Below, in pieces: positions 1-2,476 of a stretch of 60,529 nt of DNA. The number at the start of each line of letters is the position of its first letter. The first letter of the stretch is position 1. The notes under the pieces are model-generated. The model did no database searches, was not told where the DNA came from, and saw only the letters and a list, made by a program, of their open reading frames with translations. A program made the translations under genes and the position numbers. The stretch covers positions 1-60,529 of the forward strand of contig JBFGVE010000003.1 in assembly GCA_041565275.1 (NCBI GenBank), given 5' to 3'. The DNA comes from Bacteroidia bacterium (lineage in GTDB: Bacteria; Bacteroidota; Bacteroidia; J057; JADKCL01).

Positions 1-221
1 CCAGAATCAAATATATTGAACCAGTCCGGTATTGGGTATCGACGGAAACATTTTGAACGTAGCTACACCCTTCATCATCCACAATCTTTTTCCATTCGGC
101 CATTCACAGGATTGGAATTGGCGATGGAAAAGGAGGCATCCTAAACCTACCTTGGTGTGCTTAGCCTAGATCATAAATCCACCTTTTCAGAGGGTATAAT
201 GCATTCCTTACCGCTAACGGG

Positions 222-509
222 TAGTATTTTGATCTCCACTGAGTTGTCCTGCAGCCACCACTAAATTGTCCTCTGAGGATCACTGGATTGTGCTCCGACC
301 ACCTCCGAATCGTAATTTGAACACAACTGAGATGTGTTCCAGCCATCCTCCGAATTGTACCCAGACTGCCACATGGTCGTACTACAACCACCCCCAGAAT
401 TACACTTTGACCACAACTGAGTTGTACCCAGACCACCCCCAAATTGACCTCCGACCACCCCCAAATTGAATTCAGGCCACCCCCGAATGGTACTTTGAAT
501 ACTGTCTTA
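222..509. repeat. Degenerate 22-bp tandem repeat array (13 units) with ~88-90-bp higher-order period
   Basis: Units start at 222,244,266,288,310,332,355,377,400,422,444,466,488 (11 of 22 bp, 2 of 23 bp). Common unit e.g. TTGTACCCAGACCACCCCCAAA (422-443). Every fourth unit (222,310,400,488) is a distinct variant with TTTGA, and the first three of these end in ACTGAG. Confidence 0.85.
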
Positions 510-680
510 TCCCCTTTTGCAAGATTATAAGGAGATCCAAGGACAGGGCAATCGGTATTTTCATTGCTATTTAACCTTATTCGATAAAAGCCAGATTACT
601 CACAGTATTTGCAAAGTATCCGGTTTAGATCGTCCGAGGTGTTGACTCCCAGTTGTTTCTGGTCATTCAGCCGTATCAAT

Positions 681-712
681 CTTGAGAAACCCATCATTCT
701 TCTTTAACTTCA
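681..712 (+). promoter_or_regulatory. Putative Bacteroidota sigma70-type promoter for the small lipoprotein
   Basis: CTTG (681-684), 20-nt spacer, TAACTTCA (705-712), resembling TTTG-N19-21-TAnnTTTG; 19 nt before ATG 732. Confidence 0.45.
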
Positions 713-731
713 GTTCCTCAATACAATCAAC

Positions 732-863
732 ATGAAGAAATTATTTGGGTTTTGCTTGATCATTATCCTACTCCTTGGGTTTGTAAGTTGCGCAGGTGCA
801 AACAAGCATCACGGCTATACTAGCAAATACCCTTGCCACCAAAAGCATCCTTGTGACCACTAG
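732..863 (+). CDS. 43-aa predicted lipoprotein with His/Cys-rich mature peptide (absent from ORF track, <60 aa)
   Basis: Hand translation: MKKLFGFCLIIILLLGFVSCAGANKHHGYTSKYPCHQKHPCDH*. MKK start, hydrophobic core, lipobox FVS-C20, promoter-like motif and A-rich leader upstream. Confidence 0.7.
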   Translation: MKKLFGFCLIIILLLGFVSCAGANKHHGYTSKYPCHQKHPCDH

Positions 864-931
864 ATAGAGTAATGATATTGGAAATATACTATTGATACAG
901 AGGTCCGGGCTCCGCTCCACTCAGTCTTTTT

Positions 932-1135
932 CTTGACCTTCCGGAACTTTTCTAATTTCTTCCAGTTCTGCTTGGGCCAGGAAGGTTAAGCAATCGCATG
1001 AAACTGCTTTAAAAAAGTTCAGAGGAAAGAGGGTTAAGAAAGCAGTTTGATTGTAAGTGATCAGAACTTTTTGGATTGGCAGGTGTTAGTCAAAAAGCTA
1101 TGTCTTATTATACCCGAATATGAAGGTGGGTATAA
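932..1135. repeat. Cluster of intergenic inverted repeats
   Basis: 932-942/980-990 (10 of 11, one G-U); AAACTGCTTT 1001-1010/1039-1048 (perfect); AAAAAGTTC 1012-1020/1064-1072 (perfect); TTATACCC 1108-1115/1128-1135 (perfect). Confidence 0.6.
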
Positions 1136-1162
1136 ACGAAGATAGCCAACCGGGGTAGGGCA

Positions 1163-2476
1163 ATGGATTTAGATTACCATAACATATTCCAAATAGCAAG
1201 CGACTATCACAGCGAAGGGGAGCACCACAAAGCCTTTGTGGAGGTGCAAAAGCTAGTGGAATATCCCGGCGAAATGAATATCGAAGACAGTTGGGCTGAA
1301 GTATGGCAATTATTCGGATCTATCGCTGGTGCCATGGGGTTCGAAAAGTTAAGTCACCTTGCGATCAAGGCTAGCGATCAGCCTCACAATGTACAACTTC
1401 TTTATTGCCTTGGATATGAGCTGATTGAAGTGAACCTTCCAATGGTGGCAGCTACTCCTTTGAACCAAGCTCACCTGATGAATCCCGACAACGAGGCAGT
1501 TCTGACAGAACTTTGTACTGCATTCGAAAACGCTGGACAGTATAACTTAGCTTACATGCATTTATCCTGTGCAACGCAGATTTTGAAAAGCAGCTTTATG
1601 TGTCGCTATTTGTTGGCATTCAACGGAATTATGTCTGGACATCTGGAGGAAGGGAGAGCGATCTATCCAAGTCTTTCTGAACCACCAGATGAGAATTACG
1701 ACTTCATGCGTGACCGGATTGGTAAGATCATTGAACGCGCTGACAAATTGGTTGACATTACGGACTTAGATTCCCACGACTTAAGGGGCTGGCACTATGT
1801 CTTGACCGGAGGTACATTATTGCACCTGTCGCCTTATGGATTTGACGGTCCCATGCGAGGGCGATATTGCTATGTCCAGGATTCCTTCAGCCTAATTCGT
1901 GAAGGTGTAGAAAGAGTTCGGGCATGTTTGCATACTTGGGGTCTACAACCTGAAACGGTGGTCTACTTTCCAGATAAGCACAGTGAAATTCTGGCCAGGG
2001 CATTTGCAAGCCTGGAAGGGGCAAAAATTCAGCCTTGGTCAGAAGGCCAAAAAGTTCCAGGGGCCCCTATTCTATACATTGCTTATGACCTCAATCTTAC
2101 CTCATCTGAATTTATCCGGGGCCTGTTGGAACGAAAGCCCAAGCAATTTCTCTGGGGACACGCCCTGAATTGGGTGGAGGATTCTCCTATTACGGCGGAT
2201 TTCACAACCTTTATGTACCAATTCAACCTAGCTCCTTGGGAAGATGGAGTTGTTGCTATTGATCCCGTAACCCAAGTGCAAAAAGTTACCGAAGACAACC
2301 CTTCTCCAGCATCTGAACTGGCCGAACAAATCCTAAAGACCCAAATCGATGACAACCTTGTAGATGAAATGGAGGCGTTTTTGTCCTTTATCCATGCCAC
2401 TGGTCCTCCCCCCACTAACATTTGTCGAGAAAAATACTTCCAAGGCTCTCCTGTCATTAGCAACCGAATGAATTAA
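1163..2476 (+). CDS. TPR-like helical repeat protein with conserved-looking C-terminal alpha/beta domain, function unknown
   Basis: 437-aa ORF. N-half TPR-like (LLYCLGYELIE, LNQAHLMNPDN); C-half motif RGWHYVLTGGTLLHLSPYGF. Confidence 0.6.
   Translation: MDLDYHNIFQIASDYHSEGEHHKAFVEVQKLVEYPGEMNIEDSWAEVWQLFGSIAGAMGFEKLSHLAIKASDQPHNVQLLYCLGYELIEVNLPMVAATPLNQAHLMNPDNEAVLTELCTAFENAGQYNLAYMHLSCATQILKSSFMCRYLLAFNGIMSGHLEEGRAIYPSLSEPPDENYDFMRDRIGKIIERADKLVDITDLDSHDLRGWHYVLTGGTLLHLSPYGFDGPMRGRYCYVQDSFSLIREGVERVRACLHTWGLQPETVVYFPDKHSEILARAFASLEGAKIQPWSEGQKVPGAPILYIAYDLNLTSSEFIRGLLERKPKQFLWGHALNWVEDSPITADFTTFMYQFNLAPWEDGVVAIDPVTQVQKVTEDNPSPASELAEQILKTQIDDNLVDEMEAFLSFIHATGPPPTNICREKYFQGSPVISNRMN

What the first reader, a model, noticed from the sequence alone, without database searches (positions are those of the whole stretch)
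222..509. Non-coding 22-bp repeat array with a four-unit (~89-bp) higher-order register
Seen: 13 consecutive 22/23-bp units. Most carry a CCACCCCC/CCACC core (GGGGGTGG on the minus strand), but units 1, 5, 9 and 13 (222, 310, 400, 488) are a second type (e.g. TCGTAATTTGAACACAACTGAG, TTACACTTTGACCACAACTGAG), giving the pattern A-B-C-B-A-B-C-B-A-B-B-B-A. A 22-bp period is not a multiple of 3, so the three short ORFs over it are unlikely to be real, and there is no repeat-spacer alternation, so it is not CRISPR. Known: 22 bp is about two helical turns and is the size of R6K iterons and Tn7 TnsB sites; IS21-family ends also carry multiple subterminal repeats of similar size. Inference: a phased protein-binding platform (origin, partition or transposon end) for two site types, possibly a relic of an element left of the window. 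The two-level periodicity is what no standard feature explains.
Basis: partly seen in the sequence, partly recalled or inferred. Interest (0 to 1): 0.72.

Follow-up and report, generated by a model that had tools for sequence, protein, structure and literature searches.

The report
Dispersed 22-bp minisatellite repeat family
The 22-base repeat array is real but is one decayed copy of at least 37 similar non-coding arrays scattered through this uncultured Bacteroidia genome, a lineage-specific "selfish satellite" like the BrickBuilt repeats of Porphyromonas, not a replication origin, partition site or transposon end.

Summary
The array (about window 204-510; sense strand is minus) is real. The lag-22 autocorrelation has z=9.6, and every fourth unit carries TCAAANTRY (498, 410, 320, 232).

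It is not a unique locus. Period 22 stands out genome-wide (31 regions against 0-12 for other periods). A profile of three units finds 37 arrays (11.4 kb) on 33 contigs, and 30 of them lie within 1 kb of a contig end.

The family consensus is ACAAC-N3-GTTGGGGTCAGGAG, with an AAC-N3-GTT dyad.

Other arrays have 44-, 66/67- and 88-bp registers, so the two-level periodicity is ordinary satellite higher-order structure.

The family occurs in only one other genome of the 78 in the order. That genome has at least five dispersed copies, each with about 27 units in the same order and with the dyad positions preferentially conserved.

Window 1-207 is the multi-copy leader of an uncharacterised gene ("X") that lies off the contig.

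I found no RAYT, no IS21 or Tn7 link, no plasmid, phage or Rfam match, no significant RNA fold and no coding signal.

The closest known element is BrickBuilt of P. gingivalis, but its terminal inverted repeats were not found here. Function is unproven.

The parts
204..510 (-). Tandem array of 13-14 degenerate 21-24-bp units, one member of the genome-wide 22-bp repeat family. On the family's sense (minus) strand the units read like ACAAYYNNGTKGNGGTCNGRG.
   Evidence: Autocorrelation z=9.6 at lag 22. Unit segmentation 204-493. Periodicity scan 204-346 and 372-533. Profile matches at 230-463 and 274-332.
224..232 (-). TCAAAATAC mark of a canonical-type unit. It is the fourth of four marks spaced 88-90 bp apart.
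   Evidence: Regex on the minus strand.
312..320 (-). TCAAATTAC mark of a canonical-type unit (every fourth unit).
402..410 (-). TCAAAGTGT mark of a canonical-type unit (every fourth unit).
490..498 (-). TCAAAGTAC mark in the terminal degenerate unit at the array's 5' edge.
415..423 (.). The only intact family dyad (AACTCAGTT, i.e. AAC-N3-GTT) left in this array.
   Evidence: Family-wide, 16% of units keep the dyad, against 0.6% per 22 bp in the whole genome.
511..522 (-). 5' boundary of the array (sense strand TTGCAAAAGGGG). It resembles the A-run plus G-run with which sister arrays and the copies in the related genome begin.
   Evidence: Direct reading. 5' flanks of sister arrays. Alignment of the copies in the related genome.
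1..207 (-). Multi-copy 'leader'. It is 98-100% identical to the end of contig C34 and 86% identical to C212. In sister contigs (C10, C4, C62, C212) it continues about 170 nt further left into the start codon of the multi-copy gene X, which is transcribed away from the array's 3' end. Identity to C34 falls from 98% to about 60% at window ~208, exactly at the edge of the array.
1057..2476 (+). First block shared with the closest related genome: a 437-aa TPR-like gene, 76% aa identity. Everything to its left, including the array, has no counterpart at that locus in the relative.

Best explanation
The array is a decayed copy of a lineage-specific, non-coding, dispersed minisatellite family. The family's unit is a 22-bp 'brick' with ancestral form about ACAACCCGGTTGRGGTCAGGAG, built around the short dyad AAC-N3-GTT.

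Shown:
- The family fills at least 37 intergenic stretches (at least 11.4 kb) of this draft genome.
- Each array has homogenised its own unit variant. Arrays carry higher-order registers of 2, 3 or 4 units, as expected if blocks of units are amplified by slippage or unequal recombination.
- In the one related species that has the family, whole composite elements of about 600-700 bp, with about 27 different units in a fixed order, sit at five or more unlinked intergenic sites. The repeats therefore spread as longer pieces.
- In this genome the arrays abut recently copied segments. The 98%-identical gene-X leader stops exactly at the array edge.

Inferred:
- The arrays are essentially selfish or structural DNA. 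They expand locally by replication slippage or unequal crossing-over. They are dispersed by an unidentified recombination or transposition route, or by co-duplication with neighbouring paralogous genes. They serve as junctions for ectopic recombination.
- The two-helical-turn phasing, and the better conservation of the dyad among copies in the relative, suggest that a dimeric DNA-binding protein recognises the units. This could be the factor that moves them. It is a hypothesis only.
- The window's own copy retains one intact dyad out of 13 units, so it is probably a relic with no specific function.
For: - Period 22 is singular in the genome: 31 regions against 0-12 for every other period from 10 to 35, and ACA repeated four times at exact 22-bp spacing occurs 79 times against 0-5 at spacings 17-27.
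- Family size: 37 arrays on 33 contigs by nhmmer and 139 covariance-model matches.
- 30 of 37 arrays lie within 1 kb of a contig end, although only 19.6% of the genome does. This is expected for repeats that break a short-read assembly.
- Sister arrays have 44-, 66/67- and 88-bp registers, e.g. C145 0.93, C251 0.92, C4 0.74, C17 0.57.
- The family is restricted to this genome and one same-genus genome out of the 78 genomes of the order. There were no hits in JGI metagenome contigs, plasmids or phages.
- The related genome has five aligned dispersed copies, 75-81% identical, with the same unit order and with indels of 22-24 and about 67 columns.
- Among those copies the core dyad positions are 0.91 conserved against 0.81 elsewhere, permutation p=0.0007.
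- Identity between C3 and C34 drops from 98% to 60% at window ~208.
- The array is absent upstream of the orthologous gene in the relative.
- There are no Pfam hits for the overlapping ORFs, no Rfam hit, and RNA fold z-scores of -1.4 and +1.35.
- A published analogue exists: the BrickBuilt 23-nt minisatellite elements of P. gingivalis (PMC4596501).
Against: - No mobilising enzyme, terminal inverted repeat or target-site duplication was found, so the route of dispersal is unknown.
- Preferential conservation of the dyad in the relative points to some constraint that a purely neutral model does not predict. The alignment may, however, be anchored on those positions.
- About 72% of resolvable flanking sides are gene starts, which could indicate a regulatory role. 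The counts are inflated by paralogous loci and rest on crude ORF calls.
- The genome is a fragmented MAG, so no array flanked by the multi-copy genes could be seen whole.
Confidence: 0.7

Rival explanations
1. The arrays are a host-functional phased protein-binding platform. Each 22-bp unit would present one AAC-N3-GTT dyad on the same face of the helix, and a dimeric regulator or nucleoid protein would polymerise along the array. This would insulate or tune the promoters of the flanking genes, here gene X to the left.
For: - The period is two helical turns.
- The dyad is enriched about 28-fold over the genome background.
- Dyad positions are better conserved than spacer positions among the dispersed copies in the relative, p=0.0007.
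- Arrays lie mostly on the promoter side of genes.
- At least 10 arrays sit upstream of copies of gene X.
Against: - Only 16% of units in this genome keep the dyad and ten arrays have none. The window array keeps 1 of 13.
- Unit sequences differ widely between arrays.
- No gene is consistently adjacent in both genomes. The gene X paralogues of the relative, and a 66%-identical homologue elsewhere, have no arrays.
- The single HU gene is not next to an array.
Confidence: 0.2
2. The arrays are a true BrickBuilt-type MITE: a non-autonomous transposon with leader, minisatellite and tail, mobilised in trans by a resident IS4/IS5-type transposase.
For: - The architecture resembles BrickBuilt: spacer-less 22-23-nt repeats, conserved flanks on each side, tens of intergenic copies and a narrow host range (PMC4596501).
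- This genome has 18 DDE_Tnp_1 matches against 4-6 in its larger congeners.
- An IS-end fragment lies about 240 bp from the nearest array on C202.
- Copies in the relative have fairly sharp 5' boundaries.
Against: - No terminal inverted repeats or target-site duplications are visible at the ends of the five aligned copies.
- The conserved flanks in this genome are simply the upstream regions of the multi-copy genes X and Y.
- No array is adjacent to a transposase gene.
Confidence: 0.15
3. The arrays are transcribed and act as RNA, for example as a repeat-rich non-coding RNA or a 5'-UTR element of the downstream gene.
For: - BrickBuilt elements are transcribed and carry promoters (PMC4596501).
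- The arrays are usually co-oriented with the gene on their 3' side: 11 of 18 by ORF calls, and I estimate about 17 of 23 after adding gene-X copies that lie beyond contig ends.
- Copies in the relative begin with a G5-C5 hairpin.
Against: - There is no Rfam match even at E<=10.
- The window array does not fold better than shuffles on either strand.
- Unit hairpins are only 4-5 bp.
- Sequence varies widely between arrays.
- Transcription data could not be obtained.
Confidence: 0.08
4. One reading: an iteron-type origin, a partition site, or the subterminal repeats of an IS21/Tn7-like element whose body lies to the left of the window.
For: A 22-bp spacing is typical of iterons and of TnsB/MuA binding sites (textbook knowledge). 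The array does adjoin a repeated sequence at the left contig end.
Against: - There are at least 37 loci.
- Arrays have up to about 29 head-to-tail units.
- The left neighbour is the uncharacterised gene X, not rep, par, ist or tns.
- Contigs with rve or IstB-like ORFs carry no arrays.
- There is no similarity to plasmids or phages.
Confidence: 0.03

Closest known systems
BrickBuilt minisatellite/MITE of Porphyromonas gingivalis (Klein et al. 2015, Mobile DNA 6:18, PMC4596501)
   Same: - Spacer-less tandem repeats of 22-23 nt, imperfect within and between copies.
- Tens of copies, always intergenic, about 0.3-0.4% of the genome.
- Conserved but different flanks on the two sides.
- Confined to one species group within Bacteroidota.
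- No Rfam match.
- Breaks or confuses assemblies.
   Different: - The period is 22 bp, not 23, and no sequence relationship was established.
- The IS5-like terminal inverted repeats that make BrickBuilt a MITE were not found here.
- Here the flanks are promoter regions of multi-copy genes.
- Unit sequences diverge far more between arrays, and multi-unit higher-order registers are common.
REP/BIME/REPIN elements with RAYT transposases (Proteobacteria; PMC3733652)
   Same: Short, partly palindromic extragenic repeats, clustered and dispersed in high copy number within one lineage.
   Different: - Units here are strictly head-to-tail, not in alternating orientation.
- The palindrome is only 3+3 bp.
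- No Y1/RAYT transposase gene is present in this genome or in either of its two congeners.
Higher-order-repeat satellite DNA and bacterial minisatellites (e.g. MIRU loci of mycobacteria; textbook knowledge)
   Same: Local homogenisation of units, multi-unit registers (2, 3 or 4 units), variable copy number, and dispersal at many intergenic loci.
   Different: The exact 22-bp unit with a conserved dyad, and the spread of whole ordered composites of about 27 units in the relative, are not features of those families.
Iteron arrays of plasmid origins (R6K, RK2) and the sopC/parC centromeres
   Same: Direct repeats phased at about two helical turns.
   Different: Those are single loci beside rep or par genes and have 3-12 units. 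Here there are dozens of chromosomal loci, no rep or par neighbour, and no plasmid similarity.

Membership tests
BrickBuilt-type minisatellite MITE | Spacer-less tandem direct repeats of about 23 nt | tested here: met
   13-14 units of 21-24 nt with no spacers. The period is 22 bp, not 23.
BrickBuilt-type minisatellite MITE | Many dispersed, strictly intergenic copies within one species group | tested here: met
   37 arrays on 33 contigs. Only 2 of the 78 genomes of the order carry the family. The overlapping ORFs are short and have no family match.
BrickBuilt-type minisatellite MITE | Distinct conserved leader and tail segments flanking the repeats | tested here: inconclusive
   Conserved flanks exist on both sides, but they are the upstream regions of the multi-copy genes Y and X. 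No complete leader-array-tail copy is assembled.
BrickBuilt-type minisatellite MITE | IS5-like terminal inverted repeats, with or without target-site duplication | tested here: not met
   No inverted termini or flanking direct repeats at the ends of the five aligned copies in the related genome. The ends are fuzzy at 75-81% identity.
BrickBuilt-type minisatellite MITE | Sequence homology to the P. gingivalis element | not tested
The paper reports no BLAST hits outside P. gingivalis and P. gulae.
REP/BIME-RAYT system | A RAYT (Y1 transposase, PF01797) gene in the genome | tested here: not met
   No match in G000, G001 or G002. The control genomes were positive.
REP/BIME-RAYT system | Imperfect palindromic units, often in alternating orientation | tested here: not met
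   Units are head-to-tail on one strand. Most arrays are 80-100% single-orientation.
Iteron origin / partition centromere | A single locus adjacent to rep or par genes on a replicon | tested here: not met
   At least 37 loci. The left neighbour is gene X. No plasmid or phage similarity.
IS21 / Tn7-like transposon end | Repeats lie at the ends of an element encoding IstA/IstB or TnsB (rve family) | tested here: not met
   None of the 13 rve matches, nor the one IstB-like match above the cut-off, lies on an array-bearing contig. Contig breaks prevent a complete exclusion.
CRISPR array | Conserved repeats alternating with unique spacers | tested here: not met
   Units abut one another and no spacers are present.
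Curated structured RNA (Rfam) | Match to a covariance model, or a fold more stable than shuffles | tested here: not met
   No relevant Rfam hit at E<=10. Fold z-scores are -1.38 and +1.35.

The most novel reading that the evidence does not exclude
The array family may be one instance of a phylum-wide, essentially undescribed class of Bacteroidota cis-elements. These would be head-to-tail arrays phased at exactly two helical turns (21-23 bp) around a small lineage-specific dyad. They would be generated or read by lineage-specific dimeric DNA-binding proteins and would act as promoter-side architectural elements or recombination hubs.

The points in favour are the purifying signal on AAC-N3-GTT among the dispersed copies in the relative, BrickBuilt, and several unverified earlier notes of 22-bp palindrome arrays in other Bacteroidota.
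Probability: 0.15. Interest if true: 0.7.

Novelty: new member of a known kind. Interest (0 to 1): 0.38.

Why it matters
For annotation, this explains why this MAG is shattered at dozens of places. It also warns that the short ORFs over such arrays are spurious.

Biologically, it adds a second, independent, well-documented case beside BrickBuilt of a 22-23-bp minisatellite that has spread through a Bacteroidota genome. This case shows clear higher-order structure, and whole ordered composites have been dispersed. The family is also far more abundant in a 3.3-Mb genome than in its 7.3-Mb congeners.

If the recurrent two-turn phasing around small dyads in different Bacteroidota proves to have a common cause, it would point to an unrecognised DNA-binding or repeat-generating activity in the phylum. 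On present evidence this particular array is an ordinary decayed copy.

Tried and rejected
- Coding: the three ORFs over the array are 67-93 aa with no Pfam hit. Copies in the relative differ by 22-24-column indels.
- Structured RNA: no Rfam hit and no fold better than shuffles.
- Terminator or promoter: no terminator-like site and no excess of sigma-70-like sites in window 1-1300. The G5/C5 hairpin at the start of the relative's copies is not called as a terminator.
- RAYT/REP: no Y1 transposase.
- IS21/Tn7: rve and IstB hits are not on array contigs.
- MITE: no TIR or TSD.
- Obligate link to gene X: the relative's 20 paralogues and a 66%-identical homologue from a Logan assembly have no arrays.
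- Identity of gene X: no Pfam, NCBIfam, PHROG or PDB match. The homologue search found only its own copies plus one other protein.
- Same locus in other assemblies: no exact-protein record. No metagenome match to the unique flank or to the canonical two-unit pattern.
- Empty-site test for one copy in the relative: the G001 orthologue sits 290 nt from a contig end, so the test was uninformative.
- One alignment was made with a locus in the wrong orientation and was replaced.

Full report
**1. The observation**

Window 200-520 has a very strong 22-bp autocorrelation: 0.505 identity, z=9.6. The largest z at any lag in 500 shuffles was 4.5. TRF scores only the three best units, 422-488.

Read on the minus strand, the region divides into 13 units of 21-24 nt covering window 204-493, and one more degenerate unit reaches about 510.

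The four-unit register is real but modest.
- TCAAANTRY occurs exactly four times on the minus strand, at 498, 410, 320 and 232. The spacings are 88, 90 and 88.
- Lag-4 unit similarity is 0.596, with permutation p=0.02 before correction for 8 lags.
- The raw 88/89-bp autocorrelation peak is no higher than the 66-bp peak.

The ORFs over the array are 67-93 aa and match no Pfam family.

**2. The array is one of a family**

The window is contig C3 of a 336-contig, 3.34-Mb draft genome, and window position 1 is a contig end. The organism is an uncultured Bacteroidia MAG: its HemC is 87% identical to that of another uncultured Bacteroidia MAG.

Period 22 is singular in this genome.
- A periodicity scan finds 31 regions at period 22, against 0-12 at every other period from 10 to 35.
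- ACA repeated four times at exactly 22-bp spacing occurs 79 times, against 0-5 at spacings 17-27.

A three-unit sequence profile (A1 and R1) gives 139 Infernal matches. With nhmmer it gives 37 arrays on 33 contigs, 11.4 kb in total.

Thirty of the 37 arrays lie within 1 kb of a contig end, whereas only 19.6% of the genome does. The arrays, or their repeated flanks, are where the assembler gave up.

On the sense strand the family consensus is ACAAC(C/T)NNGTTGGGGTCAGGAG, with a short dyad AAC-N3-GTT. The window array lies on the minus strand.

The CCACCCCC units are a derived local variant in which the right half of the dyad has become GGG. Only one intact dyad survives in the window array, at 415-423.

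**3. The two-level periodicity**

Sister arrays show the same thing, often much more clearly.

| Register | Arrays (autocorrelation) |
|---|---|
| 44 bp | C16, C55 |
| 66/67 bp | C145 0.93, C251 0.92, C4 0.74, C195 0.62 |
| 88 bp | C17 0.57 |

This is the higher-order structure expected when blocks of several units are amplified by unequal exchange. It needs no special explanation.

**4. What lies to the left**

Window 1-207 is itself repeated. It is 98-100% identical to the end of C34 and 86% identical to C212.

In C10, C4, C62 and C212 the same sequence continues for about 170 nt into the start codon of a multi-copy gene, "gene X". Gene X encodes 250-285 aa (MSTNPGRVNRQFSDNELKD…) with a proline-rich C-terminus and is transcribed away from the array.

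- Gene X has 9 matching stretches in this genome, 20 in one congener and 8 in another.
- It matches nothing in Pfam, NCBIfam, PHROGs or the PDB.
- At least ten arrays sit in the same orientation upstream of a gene-X leader.
- Another set (C20, C17, C176, C183, C2) abuts the upstream region of a second multi-copy gene, "gene Y", which encodes a secreted protein.

The link to gene X is local and not intrinsic. In the congener none of the array sites found lies next to a gene-X paralogue; the only shared contig has them 17 kb apart. A 66%-identical homologue from another assembly has an array-free upstream region.

Identity between C3 and C34 drops from 98% to about 60% exactly at the edge of the array, window ~208. 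A recently copied gene-X segment therefore adjoins two different arrays. Either the arrays are junctions for ectopic recombination, or they are preferred landing sites.

**5. Relatives**

The profile R1 finds the family in only one other genome of the 78 in the order: a 7.3-Mb species of the same genus (G002, 15 matches). A second species of the genus has none.

Other collections gave nothing.
- The canonical two-unit pattern is absent from JGI metagenome contigs.
- The window sequence matches no plasmid or phage record.

In G002 the family takes the form of five or more dispersed intergenic copies, 75-81% identical over about 560 bp, with the conserved region extending to roughly 600-700 bp. 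Each consists of about 27 different 22-bp units in the same order. The copies differ by indels of 22-24 and about 67 columns.

Among these copies the dyad positions are more conserved (0.91) than the rest (0.81), permutation p=0.0007, and the central N is the least conserved position. The caveat is that the alignment may be anchored on these positions.

I saw no terminal inverted repeats or target duplications.

The orthologue in G002 of the window's 437-aa gene has no array upstream. Homology to the window begins at position 1057.

**6. Tests of specific models**

| Model | Result |
|---|---|
| Structured RNA | No Rfam hit; fold z-scores -1.38 and +1.35 |
| REP/RAYT | No Y1 transposase in any of the three congeners |
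| IS21/Tn7 | rve and IstB-like hits are on contigs without arrays |
| IS4/5 | 18 matches here against 4-6 in the congeners, none adjacent to an array |

In this genome only 16% of units keep an exact AAC-N3-GTT, although that is about 28 times the genome background. Ten arrays have none. This argues against strict selection for a single binding site in this genome.

By crude ORF calls, about 72% of resolvable flanks are gene starts. Paralogous loci inflate this count.

**7. Comparison with what is known**

The closest described element is BrickBuilt of Porphyromonas gingivalis. BrickBuilt has spacer-less 23-nt repeats with a leader and a tail. It has 19 intergenic copies making up 0.44% of the genome. 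It is species-restricted, transcribed, and classed as a MITE because of IS5-like terminal inverted repeats (PMC4596501).

The present family shares the architecture and behaviour. It lacks demonstrable terminal repeats, has a 22-bp unit, and shows much greater divergence between arrays and clear higher-order repeats.

Earlier notes from this scan describe 21-22-bp phased palindrome arrays in other Bacteroidota. I treat them as leads only.

**8. Verdict**

The interpretation as an origin, partition site or transposon end is not supported.

The array is a decayed member of a lineage-specific dispersed minisatellite family, which makes it a new member of a known kind.

Whether the two-turn phasing around a dyad reflects a binding protein, or a repeat-generating activity common to Bacteroidota, remains open. 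That is the only part with wider interest.

Noticed in passing
off-window: G000 C4:57415-58242, C162:1915-2772, C173:4410-5159(-), C320, C127, C62, C251, C287: There is a multi-copy gene family ('gene X') of 209-285 aa, with a conserved ~155-aa N-terminal domain and a proline-rich tail. It has 9 matching stretches here (about 8 copies), 20 in one congener, 8 in another and 4 in a family member. It has no Pfam, NCBIfam, PHROG or PDB match. One copy is followed by an RHS-repeat protein and a small downstream ORF.
   Followed up: partly
off-window: G000 C20:1-1063(-), C17:1-708(-): A second multi-copy gene ('gene Y') encodes a secreted protein with an N-terminal signal peptide. Its upstream region forms the conserved 5' flank of several arrays (C20, C17, C176, C183, C2). 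It has no Pfam match.
   Followed up: partly
whole genome G000 versus G001/G002: This genome is 3.3 Mb, 45% GC and 98.7% complete by marker genes. The two other species of the same genus are 7.3-7.4 Mb, and the regions of them that I sampled are 48-56% GC. The small genome has more IS4/5 transposase matches (18 against 4-6) and about 9 times more 22-bp repeat matches. This looks like genome reduction with repeat proliferation.
   Followed up: no
window 732-863 (+): A 43-aa ORF has a lipoprotein signal (…LLLGFVSC) and a His/Cys/Lys-rich mature part (KHHGYTSKYPCHQKHPCDH). It could be a small metal-binding lipoprotein or it could be spurious. It has no Pfam match and lies in the segment that has no counterpart in the relative.
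   Followed up: no
window 929-1146: A cluster of short inverted repeats (I2, I4-I7, I11; 12-19 nt arms) lies just upstream of the 437-aa gene. Homology to the relative starts at 1057, inside this cluster.
   Followed up: no
G000 C178, C156, C223, C217, C261, C264: rve (integrase-core) matches lie inside very long open frames of 800-1300 aa on short contigs. This suggests a multi-copy large transposase or integrase element, which I did not examine.
   Followed up: no
L070 109-1792: A DarT-Macro (DarTG-like toxin-antitoxin) gene pair lies about 3 kb upstream of the gene-X homologue in a Logan assembly.
   Followed up: no
G000 C55:3343-3728, C10:40789-40904, C168:4534-5099: Some arrays contain a head-to-head junction where the unit orientation switches. 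These are possible inversion or recombination scars within arrays.
   Followed up: no
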